This document shows positions 4,447-18,525 of a stretch of DNA of 64,000 nt, in pieces. Origin of the DNA: Promethearchaeota archaeon Loki_b32 (lineage in GTDB: Archaea > Asgardarchaeota > Lokiarchaeia > Sigyniarchaeales > SOKP01); contig NJBH01000008.1 in assembly GCA_005223125.1 (NCBI GenBank), positions 81,206-145,205 of the forward strand, read 5' to 3'. Made by a program: the position numbers and the translations under genes. The notes under the pieces are model-generated. The model did not search any database. It saw only the letters and a list, made by a program, of their open reading frames with translations, and was not told where the DNA came from. How positions within the stretch are numbered: the stretch's first letter is position 1; every line of letters starts with the position of its first letter.

Positions 4447-6132
4447 ATGATAAATAAAAAACGGAATTATACTATTAAATTCTTACTAGTTTTAGTAGCA
4501 ATTTTTTTCATCTCAATTCCGTTAATGTTAGGAGACTTAAAATCCGACTTCAATACCGTACTTTATGATCCTAACCCTAAAATAAGCGATTTCTCCAAGG
4601 ATGATTTTAATGCATTACTTACTGAAGAAAAACAAGGACTTGGAAATATATCTATATATGATATTGATTTTAGTGATTTAGAGATGGGATTTATTACTTA
4701 TAATGAAATGTATCCTCTAATTGGGGAAGATATTTTTTCAAAAAATTTGAATATAACCCAGCTTAATATGCAATTCAATGAAACTATAGACCCTGCAATA
4801 GTAGATAATTTGAATGAAAATATAACAGATAGCAATAGTATAACAGTGAAATTAAATGAAAGTTTGTTTGTTGAATACAATGATCTAACGGAAGGTTATT
4901 TAATTTATCTTCCTCGTTTAGTTCCTTGCGATTTATTACAATTTTCTGTTAATAATGGTACTGATAACTTTGAATTAATTGAAGAAACTGATTACACAGT
5001 TGATAAAGATAATTTCATTGTATTTAGTTATGAATCCTATTTTAATATATCTGTGACTACAAATTTCACAATGTATCTTATCTGGGAATATACTTTAGAA
5101 TTAACTGATTGGAGTTTAAGTCAGATAATTGGGGATGAAGAATTAATAATTGAGGATGAAGAACAAGATTTTACTACTGATTTTAATTATTATTTTATTT
5201 TAACAGGGAAAACATATAATGAATCTATTCCAATTCCTGGCGAACCTATTTTCGCAGATAATATAGATATTGCCTTAACTATTAATCATCCAGATAAGGA
5301 TTTATTTACTAACCATATTCTTGAATTAAATAACGAAACTGTGGATATTGCTGGTCACTTAAATCCAGATGATACAATTGATGTATACTTGGCAGATCAC
5401 TTTTCCGGAGAACTAAGTGAATTTTCTTTGAATTTTACAATTCCATTTACATTTAAATTTATCGAACCTGTTGGGGAAACATGGGCAATAGACAGACTTG
5501 TAGAAATGAATAATATCCGCCAGCGTATTTATTTAGCATCAATAATAAATGGCCCTCAACATATTTATTTCAAAAATCTATCATTTTATGAGCCTACAAT
5601 TTATGCTGATCAAATTTTAAGCAACACTTCTTTATTTGAAAGAGATTTCACATATTTCTTTTTGAATACGACTCTGACAGGAAGATATGGAATAAAAGTT
5701 AGTGTTCCTTATCTGATTGTTGGAGAAACTTGCCCTTTTATAATTAAATATAAACCGACCCAAACTCTAAGAGTTGTTGTATTAGATAATATAAAAATGC
5801 CACTTGTAGGAGCAGATGTTAAAGTATACTATTTTGATCAAGAATATGGAACGTATGTATCTAAAGATAAAGTTCAACCAATCAGTCCAGGCAAGACCAA
5901 TGAAAATGGTGAAATTGTATTATTGCATGTTCCTGCTGGAAATTATACAATTAGAGTTTATCACAGCGGAAGATTCCTAAAAGAATCTACTTGCAGTACT
6001 TATAATTATAGAAATTATATCACTACAAATTATCCTCATTTTCCTTTATGGATAATAATATTTGGAATTACAAATGGAATCATTCTAATATTTGGATTAA
6101 TTTTTTATTCAAAATATAAGAAAATGCGATAA
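4447..6132 (+). CDS. Secreted, C-terminally membrane-anchored glycoprotein with a carboxypeptidase-regulatory-like (transthyretin-like) domain
   Basis: N-terminal hydrophobic segment, many N-x-S/T sequons, PLVGADV...TNENG...VPAGNYTI, C-terminal TM followed by basic tail. Confidence 0.6.
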   Translation: MINKKRNYTIKFLLVLVAIFFISIPLMLGDLKSDFNTVLYDPNPKISDFSKDDFNALLTEEKQGLGNISIYDIDFSDLEMGFITYNEMYPLIGEDIFSKNLNITQLNMQFNETIDPAIVDNLNENITDSNSITVKLNESLFVEYNDLTEGYLIYLPRLVPCDLLQFSVNNGTDNFELIEETDYTVDKDNFIVFSYESYFNISVTTNFTMYLIWEYTLELTDWSLSQIIGDEELIIEDEEQDFTTDFNYYFILTGKTYNESIPIPGEPIFADNIDIALTINHPDKDLFTNHILELNNETVDIAGHLNPDDTIDVYLADHFSGELSEFSLNFTIPFTFKFIEPVGETWAIDRLVEMNNIRQRIYLASIINGPQHIYFKNLSFYEPTIYADQILSNTSLFERDFTYFFLNTTLTGRYGIKVSVPYLIVGETCPFIIKYKPTQTLRVVVLDNIKMPLVGADVKVYYFDQEYGTYVSKDKVQPISPGKTNENGEIVLLHVPAGNYTIRVYHSGRFLKESTCSTYNYRNYITTNYPHFPLWIIIFGITNGIILIFGLIFYSKYKKMR

Positions 6133-8255: not shown

Positions 8256-9674
8256 ATGAAGAAGAAATTAAAGATTAAATTTATATCAGCGATTATTATT
8301 GGAATTATTCTATTACCTACTTGTACATTCTTCATAATCCCAACTGCTCTTGCTCAAGAGAATTCCTTTCAAAACATCTCAGTTCAAGAAGCATATACAA
8401 TGATAAAAAAGGAGGAAAATACTGAAAATCTTGTTATTTTAGATGTTAGAGATACAACCGAATTTAACTTAGGTCATTTATACGATTCTATTCTAATACC
8501 TCTCAATGACCTTGAAGCAAGAATCGGTGAACTTGAAGATTATAAGACTTCTGAGATAATAATTTACTGTAAATCTGGTTATCGAAGTCAACAAGCAAGT
8601 GAAATTTTAGGTGAATATGGTTTTACAAAAGTATATAATATGCTTGGTGGCATTTTAGCATGGATTGATGCTGATTATCCAATTTGGACAACTTCACATC
8701 ATATTACAGTAGATGAAATAACCGATAAAAAATTTGAATTATTAATAGAACCATTTCTTTTACATTATAAAGGTTGTTCAACATGCACTGAGAATCAAGA
8801 ATGTCCTATTGAGAGTGAATCAATAAGTATAACATCTGAAACATTAGAACAAGGAGAAGATCAAATAGTTATTCTCAAAAAATATGAATTTAATGGAACA
8901 GTCTATGAATTTATTCATACTCATACTATTTTATGGAGTTATGATAAATTTACTAGTAATTATAATAAATCTGCTTACTTCATTTCAACAGAAATTACTT
9001 CAGAAAATTTCTATTTGCAATATTATCAATTAGAATACGTAATATACCATAAGAACTATAACTTAACGATTTATACTCACCTTGAACCTTTAAATTCAGA
9101 GATTTATAATAGTTCATTTACATATATAAAATATACTCCTGCTAACGGAAAAGCTATAACTTCAATGGAGTTTGTGCAATTCAATATGTCTGTTATATTA
9201 TCCCAACAATACGACATTTTAGCGGATATCGCGGAAGAAATGGCAGAAATATATAAAAAATCAGAAGATTTAGACCTAATGGAACTATATTATGGTTATA
9301 CCAATATGGGAGAAGGAATTGGATCTCTTTCTGAATTAGTAAAAGAATGGCTTGGAGAATATGATTATCAAATTCTTGAAAGTGATGCAGTGTTATACGA
9401 TTACAGAGTACCCCCCATTAATGGTGGTGACCCTCCACCTCCACCTCCACCTCCACCTCCACCTCCACCTCCGCCTCCACCACCACCACCACTACCATCT
9501 TTGTTAACATGTATTATTTGTATTGCGGGTTGTGAGCTAGCGGTTTTAGCAGGATGCATTATTGCATGCATTATCTATATCCCATTTTGCCCTGTTTGCG
9601 TAGTGGTAGTGGAATTATGGGAATTATTTGACCTAGGTTGTGGTTATGTTTGTGAATATATTGGTGCTTGTTAA
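8256..9674 (+). CDS. Secreted rhodanese-domain protein with a 20-Pro linker and C-terminal 10-Cys hydrophobic halocin-C8-like peptide
   Basis: Signal peptide ending ALAQE; rhodanese motifs LDVR..EF..GH, YCKSGYRS, VYNMLGGI.AW; Pro20; 60-aa tail with 10 Cys ending VCEYIGAC. Confidence 0.75.
   Translation: MKKKLKIKFISAIIIGIILLPTCTFFIIPTALAQENSFQNISVQEAYTMIKKEENTENLVILDVRDTTEFNLGHLYDSILIPLNDLEARIGELEDYKTSEIIIYCKSGYRSQQASEILGEYGFTKVYNMLGGILAWIDADYPIWTTSHHITVDEITDKKFELLIEPFLLHYKGCSTCTENQECPIESESISITSETLEQGEDQIVILKKYEFNGTVYEFIHTHTILWSYDKFTSNYNKSAYFISTEITSENFYLQYYQLEYVIYHKNYNLTIYTHLEPLNSEIYNSSFTYIKYTPANGKAITSMEFVQFNMSVILSQQYDILADIAEEMAEIYKKSEDLDLMELYYGYTNMGEGIGSLSELVKEWLGEYDYQILESDAVLYDYRVPPINGGDPPPPPPPPPPPPPPPPPPPPLPSLLTCIICIAGCELAVLAGCIIACIIYIPFCPVCVVVVELWELFDLGCGYVCEYIGAC
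9432..9491 (+). repeat. (CCTCCA)n / (CCA)n coding microsatellite encoding Pro20
   Basis: Seen directly in the sequence. Confidence 0.95.
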
Positions 9675-10512: not shown

Positions 10513-12084
10513 TTAATTATTATCAACAGTTTCTCCATATCCAATTAACCGATAACGTCTATTTATTATTCTCGAAATTGCAAAGATAAAATCTTCTGCA
10601 GGACATATTGGAGGATTTAATTTAATGATAACACTGTCTTTTAAAATTTTAGTTACTGTTCCTCCTGTTTTTTCTGTACCAACGACTAATAATAATTTTT
10701 CATTATGCTTAAGCGAATGTACTCTGAGCATCTGCTCGGAGCCAATCACCCTATCTAATAGGTTCACTTTAAATTCAATTTCATGAAGGATTTCAGGTAA
10801 TGTATCTGGTTTTCCGACTAGGTTCCCTATTAAATGATCACCCTTAGTTAAAGCAGGATCTAAGTTAGTTCCTAAACCTATAAGCCCTCCAGGTTTTGCG
10901 TTATCTAGTAGGTTACTCCCTTGACTAATACTAACAACAGTAGATTTTAAAGGAATGTATTCATCTTTCACCCTTAAACCCGGTCGAATTTCTATTTGAT
11001 CTCCAATTTTAATCATTCCTTTTAACACTGAACCACCAATTACCCCACCCTTTAAATCACTTATTTCTTTCCCAGGTCTATTAATATCAAAAGATCGTGC
11101 AATTAAAAATTGAAATTCGCCTTCAGGAAGTTTGGGGGATGGAATAATTTCTTCAAATGCTCTTATAATTAAATCTATATTTGCTCCAAATACAGCGGAA
11201 ATTGGTATTATTGGAGCGTTTTCAGCAATAGTTCCCTTAATAAATTCTTTAATTTGTTGGTAATTTTCTAATGCTTGTTCTCGTGAAACCGCATCAATTT
11301 TATTTTGAATGATGATGATATTTTTTATTCCAGCAATGTGTAATGCTTCTAAATGTTCCCTCGTTTGTGGTTGAGGACATCGCTCATCAGCCGCAATTAA
11401 TAAGCAAGCTCCATCCATTAATGAGGCCCCACTTAACATTGTTGCCATAAGAATTTCATGACCAGGAGCATCAACAAATGAAATATTCCTTCTAAATTCT
11501 AATTGTTCTTTACATTGTGGGCATAAGTAACGGGGTTGTCCTTTTTCCCTTGACTTCTCCGCTAGATAATATGTTATATATTCATCACAATTCGGACAAT
11601 ATAAAATTGTGGCATTAGAATACCCTAATTTTATTGAAATTCCTCTTTCTTGCTCTTCAGAGTGTCTATCTGTCCAATCTCCTGTTAATGTTTTCACTAA
11701 TGTAGTTTTTCCGTGATCCACATGACCTACTAAACCTATATTACATTCAGCTTGTTTTTTTATTAATTCTTTAATATTTGAAGCTTTAGTTTTAGATTTT
11801 GGTTTTGGTTTAGGTTTAGATTTTGGTTCTAGTTCTGGTTTTACTTTAGAAATAACTTTTACTTTAGATTTTGGCTCTTCTTGAGCACCAATTTCTTGAT
11901 ATAATTTCTTTGCATTAGTAATATATTTCTTTGCAGTAGCAGCACCCACACCTTTAATCTTTAACTTTATTAATTCATCAGGATTAACATTAGCTAATTT
12001 TGCAATGCTATCTATCCCTGCAGCTTTCATTTTATCTGCAGTAGCTTTTCCGATGCCAGCAATATCTGTTAAATCATATGACAT
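10513..12084 (-). CDS. eif2g: Translation initiation factor aIF2 gamma with an N-terminal helix-hairpin-helix domain
   Basis: NIGLVGHVDHGKTT, RGISIKLGY, Zn knuckle, FVDAPGHE, CPQPQTREH, QNKID, RLIGYG; preceded by ~110 aa with IAGIG/IKGVG HhH motifs and a K/P-rich linker. Confidence 0.95.
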   Translation of the reverse strand: MSYDLTDIAGIGKATADKMKAAGIDSIAKLANVNPDELIKLKIKGVGAATAKKYITNAKKLYQEIGAQEEPKSKVKVISKVKPELEPKSKPKPKPKSKTKASNIKELIKKQAECNIGLVGHVDHGKTTLVKTLTGDWTDRHSEEQERGISIKLGYSNATILYCPNCDEYITYYLAEKSREKGQPRYLCPQCKEQLEFRRNISFVDAPGHEILMATMLSGASLMDGACLLIAADERCPQPQTREHLEALHIAGIKNIIIIQNKIDAVSREQALENYQQIKEFIKGTIAENAPIIPISAVFGANIDLIIRAFEEIIPSPKLPEGEFQFLIARSFDINRPGKEISDLKGGVIGGSVLKGMIKIGDQIEIRPGLRVKDEYIPLKSTVVSISQGSNLLDNAKPGGLIGLGTNLDPALTKGDHLIGNLVGKPDTLPEILHEIEFKVNLLDRVIGSEQMLRVHSLKHNEKLLLVVGTEKTGGTVTKILKDSVIIKLNPPICPAEDFIFAISRIINRRYRLIGYGETVDNN

Positions 12085-12524: not shown

Positions 12525-14687
12525 ATGGTTAGGTTTTCTACTAAAAAATTTATCTACTTTTCAATCATCATTTTAACTCTCATTCCACTTGTCAGTTCAA
12601 GTCTAAGTTTTAGCTTCTCGAATTTAGAAAAGAATAATGTTTCGGAGGAAATTAGAGTTTCAAATGGAAACTTAGATTTGGATTTATCATTTCTACCAGA
12701 TATTGATTATTCTTCGTTAAATAATCTCTGGTATAACCATAAAATCGAAATGTTGATAATAACTCCAGATGGTTCTGCATTTGTCAACGCAATTCAACCA
12801 TTAGCAGATTGGAAAAATGAGAAAGGGGTAAAAACAGTCATATTAAGCAATTACTCTTCATATGAAGGTGTGGATGATGCTGATAAAATTCGTAATATGA
12901 TTAAATCGTATTATGAAAAAGAAAATGTTAGATGGGTCCTTTTAGCAGGTGATGCTGGAAACGGAAAGAATGAGCTCCCGATTAGATATGTTTATAATCC
13001 CGATGTTAGAAGCGTGGACCCACCTGAAAGTGAATCCATAGGAGATAATTATTTTAAACCTACGGATTTTTATTATGCGGATCTTACAGGTACTTGGGAT
13101 AGCGATGAAGATGAAGTATGGGGAGAGGCACCAGAGTATAATGATTTTGGTTTAGATGAGATTTCATGGATCCCTGAGGTTTATGTTGGAAGATTACCCG
13201 CAGGTAATTCCGTTGAACTTGAGACTATGGTAAACAAAACATTAAAATATGAAACTGATCCAGACGTAGATGATTGGATGAATAATATGCTCCTCGCTGG
13301 AGGTATTTCTGATACATTTTTTCAAGAGCCTCCAGATGGAGAAGATGAATCAAAACTAACTACATATATTTGGCAGAATTATGTTTTGTCAGAGATGAAC
13401 TTTACCCATTTATGGAGATCGACATATTATATACCTCCTGATCCTAAAGAACCATTAAATTCAACAAGTTTCATAGATCAATTTAATTTAGGTTATTCAA
13501 CGGTAATTTTTGCGGGTCATGGAGAATATTCTAGATATTTAGATCAATCTGGTACAATATATACCAATAATGATGCTCAAAATGCATTAAATACTAATAA
13601 ACCTTCATTAGTCTATGGAGATGCATGTACTACATCTAGCTATGATTATAACAATAATAGTATTGGAGAATATTTAATCAAAAAAAAAGATGCTGGAGCA
13701 ATTGGATATATCGGAGGTTTAAGAGTAACATGGTACCACGTGAATGATGACAACCTAGAGAAATTGAATCGTGGAAACGCGAAGCTTTTTTGGAAAGAAT
13801 TTTTTGAAGGAAAAAAGTTTCAACAAGGAAGAGCTCTATATGATTCTAAAGTTGCATATATAAATAGTGACTATTATAAAGGAGGAGAAGGAGCAACATA
13901 TAAGGAATGGGAACGTAAAAATCTATTAACATACTGTCTTTTGGGTGATCCAGAACTTGATATTTATACCAATAAACCAAAATTGGCATTAAATCCTTTT
14001 ACTGAAAATATTTATGAAGGCCAATTAGTTTCTACATCGATAAAGGATATCAATGGTAAAAACATTCCTTACGCAAGAGTTCACTTAAAATCATCTGATG
14101 GTAAATATTATACAGCATATGCAGATGAACGTGGTTTAGTGAGATTCCGTCTTCCTGCTCAAGCAACTGAATTTTATAATGTAACTATTACAGGACATAA
14201 TTTAGTTCCAACACATTTCAATTTTACTACAATTCCAGATAATTACGACCCTCAATTACTCAGATTAGACGTAATTCCTGAGAAACCTTCATCATCTAAC
14301 AAAATAAATTTTAGTATTGAAACTTATGATAATATGTCTGGAATAGAAAGTGTATATTTAGTATTATCAAAAGACAACTTTACTACTTACTCATATTATG
14401 AATCAACAAATAGCTATGAAGAAAATAATGATGTATTTACAATCACTACTGACAGATTAACTTCGGGTGAATATTCCTATTGTATTGTTTCAAGAGACTA
14501 TGCAAACAATACAAATGTGTTTTATAATTCAGGATTCACTTTTTCTCTATTAAAACCTATGATAGATTATATATTTATTTCATTTAGTGTTATGATTGTT
14601 GCAATCATAGGAATCTCTGTTTTCAGTCTCTTCAAAGGTTTACAAAGATATTCTCGTGTTGTCAAAGAGATTGAAAAATTAACGTAA
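12525..14687 (+). CDS. Peptidase C25 (gingipain-like) family, secreted and membrane-anchored
   Basis: MLIITP, WK..KG, VLLAGD, TDFYYADL, VGRLP, catalytic GHG and DAC, LLGDP; C-terminal TM. Confidence 0.9.
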   Translation: MVRFSTKKFIYFSIIILTLIPLVSSSLSFSFSNLEKNNVSEEIRVSNGNLDLDLSFLPDIDYSSLNNLWYNHKIEMLIITPDGSAFVNAIQPLADWKNEKGVKTVILSNYSSYEGVDDADKIRNMIKSYYEKENVRWVLLAGDAGNGKNELPIRYVYNPDVRSVDPPESESIGDNYFKPTDFYYADLTGTWDSDEDEVWGEAPEYNDFGLDEISWIPEVYVGRLPAGNSVELETMVNKTLKYETDPDVDDWMNNMLLAGGISDTFFQEPPDGEDESKLTTYIWQNYVLSEMNFTHLWRSTYYIPPDPKEPLNSTSFIDQFNLGYSTVIFAGHGEYSRYLDQSGTIYTNNDAQNALNTNKPSLVYGDACTTSSYDYNNNSIGEYLIKKKDAGAIGYIGGLRVTWYHVNDDNLEKLNRGNAKLFWKEFFEGKKFQQGRALYDSKVAYINSDYYKGGEGATYKEWERKNLLTYCLLGDPELDIYTNKPKLALNPFTENIYEGQLVSTSIKDINGKNIPYARVHLKSSDGKYYTAYADERGLVRFRLPAQATEFYNVTITGHNLVPTHFNFTTIPDNYDPQLLRLDVIPEKPSSSNKINFSIETYDNMSGIESVYLVLSKDNFTTYSYYESTNSYEENNDVFTITTDRLTSGEYSYCIVSRDYANNTNVFYNSGFTFSLLKPMIDYIFISFSVMIVAIIGISVFSLFKGLQRYSRVVKEIEKLT

Positions 14688-15365: not shown

Positions 15366-15402
15366 TTATAAAATAACCGATACTTATAAAATGGTTATAT
15401 AA
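15366..15402 (+). promoter_or_regulatory. Candidate TATA boxes for the 5S precursor
   Basis: TTATAAAA at 15366 and 15384, TTATATAA at 15395, upstream of the precursor stem. Confidence 0.45.
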
Positions 15403-15450
15403 TGGTGCTAATAACCATATAAATTAAAAGCAACTCGCTTAGTGCCGGAA

Positions 15451-15600
15451 GTTAAACTTGTATGCGTTGTAGATAGTACTGTAGTTGCGATCTATGGGAA
15501 ACTACAAACTGTAAATTTGTTTACGGTCATGGTTTACGAGGAAAATACCCGGTCCCATCCGAAAAACCAGCTAATTTCGAGATGGTTCGGGAACCCGGAA
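15451..15600 (+). rRNA. rrf: 5S rRNA gene, circularly permuted and intron-containing (exons 15520-15563, 15594-15600, 15451-15515; UUUG linker 15516-15519)
   Basis: Helix I TTTACGGT(15520-27)/ACTGTAAA(15508-15); helix II TACGAG/CTTGTA; helix III ACCCGG/CCGG-AA-GT; helix V TTGTAG/CTACAA; loop E AGTA/GAAA; helix IV CTGTAG/CTATGG; conserved CCCATCCGAAC and GGAAGTTAA. Confidence 0.9.
15564..15593 (+). other. Predicted 30-nt archaeal-type (BHB/BHL) intron in 5S loop C
   Basis: Central helix TCCG/CGGG, bulges AA^A and AA^C, intron stem AACCA/TGGTT; removal restores CCCATCCGAACCCGGAA. Confidence 0.75.
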
Positions 15601-15630
15601 ATGCTATTTTATGTGGTTATAGTGTTTTCC

Positions 15631-15660
15631 ATTTTTAGATTCCTCTAAAAATAAGTTTTT
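15631..15660 (+). terminator. Hairpin plus T-tract downstream of the 5S precursor
   Basis: ATTTTTAGA-TTCC-TCTAAAAAT perfect 9-bp stem, followed by TTTTT. Confidence 0.5.
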
Positions 15661-15712: not shown

Positions 15713-16255
15713 TTGCCAAAAAAGTGGAAAGTCGTTCTCAAAACAATTGGAAGAAAGTGGTTTCTAATTCTTTTAGTGATTATCATCATTGTTGTTATAT
15801 ACAGTCCAATAGCAGCAATTTGGATGACCGGTATCACCTTAATTTTATTTCTTTTATCCTATATTCCAAGATTGTTTTTCAAAAATAAACTCCATAAATT
15901 TTTGAAGAAATACTATAAAATTGAAGATAATTTAATTGCAAGAAAGTTTAAAAAACCACTCGAGAAAATCCAAGATGAATTGTTTGAGTTATCACAAAAT
16001 CAGGAGAAGAAAAGCTGGTTAATTACTTTTTTAAATAAACAGTATGTTTTCTATCATCAAGAAACCATTGAAAAATTCAAGGAAGTATATAATAAAGGTT
16101 ATACTGAGAAAGAAATTCTTGATAGTTTGAAAGACTTTAAGGTTAATACTAGAGCAGAAATTAAAATAATCAAGGAAACCCTTGTTAAGCTTGAAAGACT
16201 TAGTGAGAGAGAAATCTCTGTAAAAGAACACAAAGAGAAACAAAGATTTGCCTAA
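15713..16255 (+). CDS. Hypothetical protein, two N-terminal TM helices
   Basis: 180-aa ORF with a hydrophobic N-terminus. Confidence 0.65.
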   Translation: MPKKWKVVLKTIGRKWFLILLVIIIIVVIYSPIAAIWMTGITLILFLLSYIPRLFFKNKLHKFLKKYYKIEDNLIARKFKKPLEKIQDELFELSQNQEKKSWLITFLNKQYVFYHQETIEKFKEVYNKGYTEKEILDSLKDFKVNTRAEIKIIKETLVKLERLSEREISVKEHKEKQRFA

Positions 16256-16928: not shown

Positions 16929-17450
16929 ATGCCACAAAAGTTCATTCTTAAGATCCTTACGGCAGGGGAAGGAGGAGTGGGGAAAACAACACTACTCCAT
17001 AGGTATGTAGAGGGGAAATTTTCAGCTGAAACTAAAATGACAATTGGTGTAGAGTTTTTCTTGAAAGAGACGCAAATTGACTCGAATCACTGCACTCTAC
17101 AACTCTGGGATTTTGGTGGTCAAGAGCGGTTTAGATTTTTACTTGAAAGTTACGTATTAGGAGCAAAAGGAGCACTTCTCATGTTTGACCTCACAAGGTT
17201 AATGAGTCTTGAAAATTTGCAGCAATGGATTAACATTGTTCGGAAAGGTGATCCAAATCTTCCTGTTCTCTTTGTAGGTACAAAATTGGATTTAACCGAT
17301 GAGATCCAGATAGATGACGATTATGCTATGTCTTTTTTAAATGAATTTAACTTGATTGATTATATAAAAATCTCTTCAAAAACGGGCGAAAATGTTGGTA
17401 CAGTTTTTGAAATGTTAACAAGAAATATATTAGAGCGCCAAGCCTATTGA
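16929..17450 (+). CDS. Rab/Ras-like small GTPase
   Basis: G1 GEGGVGKT, G2 TIGVEF, G3 WDFGGQERF, G4 TKLD, G5 SSK. Confidence 0.95.
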   Translation: MPQKFILKILTAGEGGVGKTTLLHRYVEGKFSAETKMTIGVEFFLKETQIDSNHCTLQLWDFGGQERFRFLLESYVLGAKGALLMFDLTRLMSLENLQQWINIVRKGDPNLPVLFVGTKLDLTDEIQIDDDYAMSFLNEFNLIDYIKISSKTGENVGTVFEMLTRNILERQAY

Positions 17451-17890
17451 AATCCAAGAATAGTGTAGTGGTTATCGATTCTAATTTTATATTACTTCCT
17501 TTTCAGTTTAAAATAGATTATTTTAACGAAATAAGATTAAAGCTTGAAGGAAAATTGAAATTTATCATATATCAACAAATTTTAAACGAATTAGATGCAA
17601 AAAAAAGAAGAGAATCCAAAGCTACTAAATTTGCATCGTTTCTTGAATCGGGTTTATTATACTTAGAAAGGAACAAAGAGAAATATGACATTGAAATAAT
17701 GGAAGATATCAAAAATGATAACGAGACTACTGATGATTTTATACTAAGATTGTCAGTAAAGCTTAAGAATGTAGGTCAAACTGTTTATTTAGCAACTAAT
17801 GATTCAGAATTGCGTAAAAAAGCAAAAAGAATAAGGATTGGAATAATTTTTTTAAGACAAAAGAAATATTTGTCTTTTGAAAGAGCTTAA
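17447..17890 (+). CDS. PIN-domain ribonuclease, Fcf1/Utp24-like
   Basis: VIDSNF, EL, TDD, LATND.ELR...LRQKKYL; TTG start overlaps the GTPase stop. Confidence 0.85.
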   Translation: MKSKNSVVVIDSNFILLPFQFKIDYFNEIRLKLEGKLKFIIYQQILNELDAKKRRESKATKFASFLESGLLYLERNKEKYDIEIMEDIKNDNETTDDFILRLSVKLKNVGQTVYLATNDSELRKKAKRIRIGIIFLRQKKYLSFERA

Positions 17891-18009
17891 AAAAAATATA
17901 AAATAATTAGTACATATTAAAGTTTTAACTAAAAATATTAATACATATTTAACCCTATATTAACCAATAATCGAGGTTTTATATTTATTTACTGATTTGA
18001 TGGAGAAGA

Positions 18010-18525
18010 ATGTCCAAAGCGATATTATTAAAGATTATCACGGCAGGAGATGGTGGTGTTGGCAAGACAACACTCCTTTATCGATATATAGAAGGGAGAT
18101 TTCTAGCTAATACGCGTATGACTATTGGTGTGGAATTCTTTCTCAAAGAGCTTAATATAGAAGGAAAAAAAATATTACTCCAAGTTTGGGATTTTGGTGG
18201 ACAGGATCATTTCAGACCTCTATTAAAGAATTATGCTGTGGGAGCAAGAGGAGCATTACTACTTTTTGATCTCACCAGACCATCAAGTTTAGAACGAATT
18301 GAGCAATGGGTTGATATTTGCAGAGGGGGGACTCAAGAGATTCCTATCATTTTCTTAGGAACAAAATTAGATCTAGAAGATCAAATAACAATATTCGATA
18401 GTTTTGCTTTGAAATTTAAGGAACAATATGGTTTTTTTGATTATTTAAAGATTTCTTCGAAAACTGGAGAAAATGTTAATTTAGCATTTGAACTATTGGC
18501 AAGAGAACTTGTAAAAGACTTATAA
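18010..18525 (+). CDS. Rab/Ras-like small GTPase
   Basis: GDGGVGKT, TIGVEF, WDFGGQ, TKLD, SSKTG. Confidence 0.95.
   Translation: MSKAILLKIITAGDGGVGKTTLLYRYIEGRFLANTRMTIGVEFFLKELNIEGKKILLQVWDFGGQDHFRPLLKNYAVGARGALLLFDLTRPSSLERIEQWVDICRGGTQEIPIIFLGTKLDLEDQITIFDSFALKFKEQYGFFDYLKISSKTGENVNLAFELLARELVKDL

What the first reader, a model, noticed from the sequence alone, without database searches (positions are those of the whole stretch)
15440..15606. Circularly permuted 5S rRNA gene whose ends form a bulge-helix-bulge motif, predicting a 120-nt circular 5S rRNA
Seen: the 3' half of 5S (GTTAAACTTGTA...ACTGTAAA, 15451-15515) comes before the 5' half (TTTACGGTCAT..., from 15520). The normal 5' and 3' ends are joined by a TTTG loop closing helix I. 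All five 5S helices pair. CCGGAA is duplicated at both ends (15445-50 and 15595-600). The palindromic CCGG copies pair as a 4-bp central helix, followed by AA^A on the trailer and AA^G on the leader, and an outer helix TAGTG(15440-44)/TGCTA(15602-06). Established: archaeal EndA cuts after the second bulge nucleotide and RtcB ligates; permuted tRNAs (Thermofilum) and a permuted circular SRP RNA (Thermoproteus) mature this way, and permuted 5S genes are known from brown-algal mitochondria. Inference: joining A15600 to G15451 gives the canonical CCCGGAA|GTTAAAC, and after intron removal the circle is 150-30 = 120 nt, normal 5S size. The leader-side bulge is relaxed (it can also fold as a 2-nt bulge). 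I know of no described archaeal or Asgard chromosomal 5S gene built like this, and standard rRNA finders would likely miss or fragment it.
Basis: partly seen in the sequence, partly recalled or inferred. Interest (0 to 1): 0.97.

Follow-up and report, generated by a model that had tools for sequence, protein, structure and literature searches.

The report
Permuted 5S rRNA gene, spliced ring
This Asgard archaeon encodes its only own 5S ribosomal RNA back half first, with a 30-base intron, between cut signals for the tRNA-splicing enzyme, and environmental RNA data contain the predicted 120-base closed ring, so a core ribosome part is apparently built by splicing in many of the closest archaeal relatives of eukaryotes.

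Summary
Confirmed. 15451-15600 is a circularly permuted 5S rRNA gene: 3' half, 4-nt cap on helix I, 5' half, a 30-nt bulge-helix-bulge (BHB) intron (15564-15593) and a 7-nt exon. Cutting at the BHB sites gives a 120-nt ring that scores as full-length 5S. It is the only archaeal 5S found in the genome; the one conventional 5S lies on a bacterial contaminant contig. The layout holds in all 55 parsed family loci (4/4 central helix, rings 119-123 nt) and in 20 Asgard families inspected, with at least five break registers, each restoring the canonical junction; six families keep linear genes. RNA contigs from four studies cover only the exons and run through the junction; one is a closed 120-nt cycle, 119/120 identical to the prediction. 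Not shown: that EndA/RtcB do it, or that the ring (not a re-opened form) sits in the ribosome. It works like the permuted SRP RNA of Thermoproteus; I found no paper on an archaeal 5S case. The scan noted this layout before on other DNA (107 findings, at least 82 genomes).

The parts
15384..15391 (+). TATA-like box (TTATAAAA), probable promoter of the 5S transcript
   Evidence: Position; similar box at the same distance in congeners. Function inferred.
15411..15423 (+). 5' arm of a long leader/trailer processing stem
   Evidence: Pairs 12/13 with 15608-15620; conserved with compensatory change in relatives, e.g. L017.
15440..15451 (+). Leader strand of the permutation BHB: outer helix 15440-44, central CCGG 15445-48, bulge AAG 15449-51; predicted cut 15450|15451
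   Evidence: geometry kept in 55 of 55 parsed family loci.
15451..15515 (+). 3' half of 5S rRNA (3' strands of helices III and II, helices V and IV, 3' strand of helix I)
   Evidence: HMM positions 47-116; covered in RNA contigs.
15516..15519 (+). 4-nt cap joining the native 3' and 5' ends on helix I
   Evidence: 8-bp helix I; 4-nt loop in 34 of 37 loci scored, UUCG in 20; RNA contigs run through it.
15520..15563 (+). 5' half of 5S rRNA (helix I and II 5' strands, loop B, helix III 5' strand, most of loop C)
   Evidence: HMM positions 3-44; RNA cover ends at 15563.
15564..15593 (+). 30-nt BHB-type intron in loop C (central 15558-61/15588-91, stem 15565-69/15583-87)
   Evidence: absent at the same place in many relatives; removal lifts the HMM score from 31.4 to 48.7 bits; no RNA cover.
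15594..15600 (+). 7-nt terminal exon (CCCGGAA): 3' strand of helix III, also trailer strand of the central helix
   Evidence: RNA joint 15563-(C)-15445 equals 15563|15594-15600|15451.
15599..15606 (+). Trailer bulge AAA 15599-601 (predicted cut 15600|15601) and outer helix strand 15602-06
15608..15620 (+). 3' arm of the long processing stem
15629..15636 (+). Pyrimidine/T-rich run, possible archaeal terminator
   Evidence: function inferred.
15713..16255 (+). Downstream 180-aa ORF of no Pfam family, syntenic with the 5S gene across the family (context, not part of the RNA)
   Evidence: homologue downstream in 57 of 59 loci.

Best explanation
This is the organism's functional 5S rRNA gene, encoded circularly permuted. 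A stand-alone transcript (inferred) folds so that leader and trailer form a relaxed BHB at the break in helix III, and an internal BHB marks a 30-nt intron. The tRNA splicing endonuclease EndA cuts after the second nucleotide of each bulge and RtcB ligates (inferred from geometry and from known archaeal splicing). Two ligations give a covalently closed 120-nt RNA with the canonical 5S sequence (product shown in community RNA contigs). The old ends stay joined by the 4-nt cap, so the ring itself is most likely the 5S in the 50S subunit (inferred). Step odds: real functional gene 0.98; cut and joined at the BHB sites 0.95; ring kept in the ribosome about 0.8.
For: Only archaeal 5S found in a 95.5%-complete genome that has uL18, two EndA subunits and RtcB. 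Catalytic EndA is closest to the A. pernix-type structures 3p1z/3ajv and aligns through their specificity-loop region; the second copy lacks the catalytic His; this enzyme type cuts relaxed motifs (PMC5829648). 55 of 55 parsed family loci have a 4/4 central helix and 3-nt bulges, rings of 119-123 nt. The break sits at different places in different lineages and each cut restores the canonical junction, with covarying central helices (CCGG/CCGG, CTGG/CCAG, CTGG/TCAG, GTCG/CGGC, CGTG/CACG) and outer helices up to 16 bp. Helices I, IV, V show compensatory changes. RNA contigs of four studies cover only exon positions; X2 holds a 150-nt contig = 120 + 30 overlap, one difference from the prediction, depth 73.6; X9 holds a second 150-nt cycle; loose ends in X6, X7, X9 run through both known family break points, so they are not DNA of either gene type. 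A 54-nt contig centred on the cap has depth 23 while leader, intron and trailer have none. The cap is mostly a UNCG tetraloop (23 of 37).
Against: The RNA data are assembled contigs of community samples: no strand, ends or levels, and the gene behind each ring was not seen, so intron removal in that very organism is inferred. A de Bruijn cycle can also arise from a mix of linear permutations. No ribosome-fraction or RNase R data. The BHB fold is not the computed minimum-energy fold. Both motifs in the window are relaxed on the exon side. The assembly lacks a 16S gene, so a missed second 5S cannot be excluded for this genome alone.
Confidence: 0.8

Rival explanations
1. The ring is only an intermediate: it is re-opened at the helix I cap to give an ordinary linear 5S, as with permuted tRNAs.
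For: Precedent in permuted tRNAs expressed via a circular intermediate (Soma 2007, cited in PMC4267664); contigs cannot separate a ring from a mix of ring plus opened form.
Against: Cap is a short, mostly UNCG tetraloop on a covarying 7-8 bp helix with no visible processing signal; cap-spanning contigs have depth similar to their neighbours in all four studies and precursors are not seen.
Confidence: 0.13
2. The RNA is trimmed but not ligated and works as a linear permuted 5S (as in brown-algal mitochondria); junction contigs are library artefacts such as template switching at the repeated CCGGAA.
For: Brown-algal mitochondrial 5S is permuted in the final product (PMC4267664). The 6-nt repeat could support template switching.
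Against: The junction is exact and intron-free in four independent studies and library types, with no leader or trailer letters; break points fall in helix III, loop B and loop C and always in a BHB, including lineages without a long repeat.
Confidence: 0.04
3. Pseudogene or retro-inserted relic of a circular 5S, or a misassembly, with a normal 5S gene elsewhere.
For: One conventional 5S is in the assembly (C68, 80.8 bits).
Against: C68 has the most deviant tetranucleotide make-up of all contigs over 15 kb, carries MreC/MreD and its own 23S directly upstream. No conventional hit in 53 congeners; 1 of 126 in the family, bacterial-like and next to a 23S end. Synteny, covariation and RNA cover argue for function. 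Closed genomes carry only permuted copies among their hits.
Confidence: 0.01

Closest known systems
Permuted, circular SRP RNA of Thermoproteus tenax / T. uzoniensis (Plagens et al. 2015, PMC4731332)
   Same: Universal structural RNA gene thought missing, encoded permuted; leader and trailer form a BHB; ligation restores a conserved element; mature RNA is circular.
   Different: Here the RNA is 5S rRNA; spread over most Asgard families inspected rather than one genus; break point varies; extra BHB introns; enzyme cleavage and protein binding not yet tested.
Circularly permuted tRNA genes of Thermofilum pendens and Cyanidioschyzon merolae (PMC3218864; Soma 2007)
   Same: 3' half before 5' half, BHB at the junction, short linker, can carry a normal intron as well.
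   Different: A tRNA must lose its linker to be charged; here the linker is a tetraloop cap that RNA contigs run through.
Permuted mitochondrial 5S rRNA of brown algae (Valach et al. 2014, PMC4267664)
   Same: 5S gene with helix I closed by a hairpin and ends moved elsewhere.
   Different: Ends lie at the three-way junction and the product stays linear and permuted, no splicing; organellar.
Circular 23S rRNA in archaeal ribosomes (PMC12918454) and permuted 23S of Thermococcales (PMC7758197)
   Same: BHB-directed circularisation of an rRNA; a ring can sit in the 50S subunit.
   Different: Those genes are collinear and the BHB flanks the native ends; PMC12918454 states that 5S is not processed this way.
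Heterogeneous circular 5S species in Halobacterium and Sulfolobus (PMC12558985)
   Same: Circular molecules made of 5S sequence.
   Different: From collinear genes, variable junctions, proposed degradation products; here one exact junction is needed to make any intact 5S.

Membership tests
5S rRNA (RF00001) | Conserved sequence blocks in canonical order over about 120 nt | tested here: met
   Met for the spliced, re-ordered product (48.7 bits, model 4-115, Asgard HMM). The gene as written scores 18.1 bits, under the cut-off of 38.
5S rRNA (RF00001) | Five helices around a three-way junction, with covariation | tested here: met
   Pairs listed; compensatory changes in helices I, IV, V; helix III covaries between genera.
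5S rRNA (RF00001) | Expressed as a stable RNA | tested here: met
   Community RNA contigs, one 119/120 identical, cover exons only; not from a culture of this strain.
5S rRNA (RF00001) | Bound by uL5/uL18 in the 50S subunit | not testable with these tools
   uL18 gene present; binding not tested.
BHB-spliced permuted RNA genes (SRP RNA, tRNA type) | 3' part upstream of 5' part on one strand | tested here: met
BHB-spliced permuted RNA genes (SRP RNA, tRNA type) | Leader and trailer form a BHB or relaxed BHB whose cuts restore the canonical sequence | tested here: met
   relaxed on the exon side in the window.
BHB-spliced permuted RNA genes (SRP RNA, tRNA type) | Ligated junction present in RNA | tested here: met
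   Joint 15563-(C)-15445 in X2 and X9; junction loose ends in X6, X7, X9. Contigs only.
BHB-spliced permuted RNA genes (SRP RNA, tRNA type) | Cleavage by EndA and ligation by RtcB | not testable with these tools
   Genes present; activity not tested.
Brown-algal mtPerm-5S type (unspliced, linear permuted) | Ends at the three-way junction, product stays linear | tested here: not met
   Break is in helix III and the junction is joined in RNA.
Archaeal BHB introns | Short insert with 4-bp central helix and two 3-nt bulges, precise removal | tested here: met
   (loop C and loop D inserts of 30 nt); no intron cover and exact skip in RNA contigs, though the source gene of those contigs is unseen.

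The most novel reading that the evidence does not exclude
In most Asgard lineages the 5S rRNA in the ribosome is a covalently closed ring that can only be made by the tRNA splicing machinery from a permuted, often intron-bearing gene, and the gene is repeatedly rewritten from the ring so that its break point moves, even between close species at the same locus.
Probability: 0.7. Interest if true: 0.92.

Novelty: new variant of a known kind. Interest (0 to 1): 0.88.

Why it matters
It gives a first case (in the papers I could search) of an archaeal rRNA gene that is permuted on the chromosome and needs splicing to yield any intact product, and of introns in a 5S gene. It explains why 5S genes could not be predicted in closed Asgard genomes (PMC8813620; a closed 3.08-Mb genome of matching size has two permuted copies), which affects annotation and genome-quality calls. 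It makes EndA/RtcB essential for ribosome assembly in these lineages and raises a testable question for eukaryote origins: was 5S permuted and circular in the archaeal ancestor, and how did lineages return to a linear gene? The family that holds the closed 4.4-Mb and 4.3-Mb Loki genomes has linear genes, which may be why cultures have not revealed it.

Tried and rejected
Rfam at gathering score over the window: nothing; E-value mode: only a weak 5S hit and two chance hits. Infernal is not in the script box, so the spliced product was scored with a self-built HMM instead of RF00001. A covariance model of the permuted core was built but not used. The bacterial promoter scan found nothing (not suited to archaea). 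Folding z-score of the AT-rich ring was -0.3, uninformative. The automatic BHB search fails on intron-bearing and type B loci and picks cuts by HMM score, so it is not an independent test; one search replaced it for the family, with two loci unparsed (L161, L185, read by eye) and one loop D intron mis-called (L061). The cap survey script crashed after L144, so its counts cover 37 loci. The conventional 5S on C68 was rejected as contaminant. No 16S gene was found in the assembly. Ten literature searches found no report of a permuted or intron-bearing archaeal 5S gene; the library lacks most subscription papers. Non-Asgard archaea were not searched. Ancestral state was not reconstructed.

Full report
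Observation. The sequence at 15440-15606 is as described. The 3' half of a 5S rRNA (15451-15515) precedes the 5' half (from 15520); TTTG closes an 8-bp helix I; helices II, IV and V pair. Leader CCGG (15445-48) pairs with trailer CCGG (15595-98), flanked by bulges AAG and AAA and a 5-bp outer helix; a 9-mer with this pairing capacity occurs at 5.5e-5 of genome positions. A second motif marks a 30-nt intron, 15564-15593, leaving a 7-nt last exon. A 13-bp stem (15411-23/15608-20, one mismatch), a TATA-like box at 15384-91 and a T-rich run at 15629-36 frame the unit. Rfam finds nothing at gathering score and one 18.1-bit hit at loose E. An HMM from 26 conventional Asgard 5S genes gives two half hits in reversed order on the gene, 31.4 bits on the re-ordered sequence and 48.7 bits (E 1.9e-16, model 4-115) once the intron is removed; the ring is 120 nt.

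Organism and copy. Loci with the same capped helix I are titled mostly Promethearchaeota/Promethearchaeia, so the window is a Loki-type Asgard archaeon; it carries archaeal aIF2-gamma. The genome (95.5% complete) has one over-threshold 5S, on contig C68. C68 is a bacterial contaminant: largest tetranucleotide distance among contigs over 15 kb, MreC and MreD beside the 5S, and its own 23S directly upstream. The archaeal 23S on C48 has no 5S hit near it. So the permuted gene is the only archaeal 5S found. uL18, RtcB and two EndA subunits are present; one has the Tyr/His/Lys residues and matches A. pernix-type structures best, through the specificity-loop region, the other lacks the His. That fits the heterotetrameric type that cuts relaxed motifs (PMC5829648), which matters because both motifs here lack a clean exon-side helix.

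Relatives. 35 of 36 congeners match the locus; none of 53 has a conventional 5S hit; in the family 1 of 126 does, a bacterial-like gene beside a 23S end. In 55 of 55 parsed distinct family loci the central helix is 4/4, the bulges are 3 nt and the ring is 119-123 nt. Two break types exist at the same syntenic locus: type A (GGAA|GTT, as here) and type B (CCGGTC|CCATCC); on a tree of the downstream ORF the type changes six times, at least five forced by well-supported branches (this tree is a proxy for the host tree and cannot exclude recombination). 30-nt introns occur in loop C and in loop D, patchily. Beyond the family, I read permuted genes with BHB ends in five more families of the class and 14 families of other classes, with further registers (GGA|AGTT, GGCAG|TTAAG, GGAA|ACACCC), covarying central helices and outer helices up to 16 bp. 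Linear genes were seen in six families (f2, f12, f15, f17, f21, f31). These are samples, not a census. That the break moves while the cut always restores the canonical junction is the strongest sequence argument that the motif is cut and ligated.

RNA evidence. Contigs from four metatranscriptomes of four studies cover only 15445-15563 (the first six letters being the repeat that equals the last exon); leader, intron and trailer have no cover. Run X2 holds one contig of 150 nt at depth 73.6, made of 15506-15563, one C, then 15445-15535: 120 nt plus a 30-nt overlap, the signature of a closed cycle for 31-letter words. It differs from the prediction at one site (G15498A). X9 has a second such cycle from a more distant relative; X6 has a 141-nt contig with one difference and the junction at both ends. 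Loose ends run through both the type A and the type B break, so they cannot be DNA or precursor of either gene type. Limits: these are contigs from communities; they show no strand, ends or level; the gene behind each ring is unseen; a cycle can come from a mixture of linear permutations. Against the mixture reading, a 54-nt contig centred on the cap has depth 23 while precursor parts have none.

Mechanism. Shown: permuted gene, motif geometry, conservation, presence of the joined, intron-free, cap-containing sequence in RNA. Inferred: a single transcript; EndA cuts after the second bulge nucleotide at four sites; RtcB joins 15563 to 15594 and 15600 to 15451. The leader CCGG can also pair with the 5' strand of helix III, which is the computed lowest-energy fold; the splice-competent fold is 2.5 to 6.2 kcal/mol higher, so folding may be co-transcriptional or protein-assisted. 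The cap is 4 nt in 34 of 37 loci scored and UNCG in 23, which suits a permanent closure. I put the ring as the ribosomal form at about 0.8, re-opening at 0.13, an unligated linear form at 0.04, and relic or artefact at 0.01.

Comparison. It works like the permuted SRP RNA of Thermoproteus (PMC4731332) and shares the gene plan of permuted tRNAs (PMC3218864). It differs from brown-algal mitochondrial 5S, which stays linear (PMC4267664), from circular 23S made from collinear genes (PMC12918454, which says 5S is not processed so), and from the variable 5S circles seen in Halobacterium and Sulfolobus (PMC12558985). Ten searches found no paper on a permuted or intron-bearing archaeal 5S gene. Wu et al. 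2022 note that 5S could not be predicted in their closed genomes of 3.32 and 3.08 Mb (PMC8813620); a closed 3,081,793-bp genome here has two permuted copies; the identity is inferred from size only.

Earlier notes of this scan report the same layout on other DNA (107 findings, at least 82 genomes) and on this stretch. I read them after forming my view and do not count them as support; they supplied the identifier of the SRP paper and the lead about closed genomes.

Verdict. Real, conserved, expressed and very probably circular. New variant of a known kind; interest 0.88.

Noticed in passing
G000 contig C68 (L001, L034): Bacterial contaminant contig with 23S, 5S, mreC, mreD and a PBP2-like gene; it would make an annotation pipeline report a false 5S and a second 23S for this genome.
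   Followed up: yes
L134-L136 (family f10) and L083 (f4), leader region: By eye, the break lies inside an intron: the first ligation creates a second BHB whose removal gives the canonical junction (nested two-step splicing). Suggests permutation can arise from an intron-bearing gene. Central helices there have one purine-purine mismatch.
   Followed up: partly
L005, L030-L032, L038, L040, L058, L061, L062, L163: Second intron site, 30 nt in loop D of 5S; L005 carries both the loop C and the loop D intron.
   Followed up: partly
L185, about 2440-2475: Third intron site (31 nt, early loop C); the intron holds a copy of the exon just upstream, as if born by tandem duplication.
   Followed up: partly
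L170, about 5300-5400: A second, partial 5S-like piece (capped helix I to helix III 5' strand) about 780 nt downstream of the full permuted gene.
   Followed up: no
window 15498: The near-identical RNA ring in run X2 reads A for G in the otherwise invariant GGGAAA block: strain difference or footprint of a modified base.
   Followed up: no
G180 (L136, L137), G232 (L134, L135), G014: Two permuted 5S copies per genome, with different leaders in the f10 genomes.
   Followed up: partly
L066 (G044, closed 4.4-Mb genome): Three identical conventional 5S genes spaced about 375 nt apart.
   Followed up: no
L151 (family f12): Conventional-order 5S with an insert of about 30 nt after helix II; not tested for a BHB.
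   Followed up: no
G000 whole genome: ARAGORN finds only 15 tRNA genes; several carry about 30-nt inserts at non-canonical places, fitting a broad-specificity EndA. The archaeal 23S match on C48 spans 3464 nt.
   Followed up: partly
window 8256-9674: 472-aa ORF with a rhodanese-like N-terminal part (by eye), a long polyproline run and a Cys-rich hydrophobic tail.
   Followed up: no
window 10513-12084 (-): aIF2-gamma with a 100-aa N-terminal extension that weakly matches the RadA N-terminal helix-hairpin-helix region.
   Followed up: partly
window 16929-18525: Two Rab-like small GTPase ORFs (by eye) flanking a PIN-domain gene; a 720-aa gingipain-like peptidase ORF (by eye) at 12525-14687.
   Followed up: no
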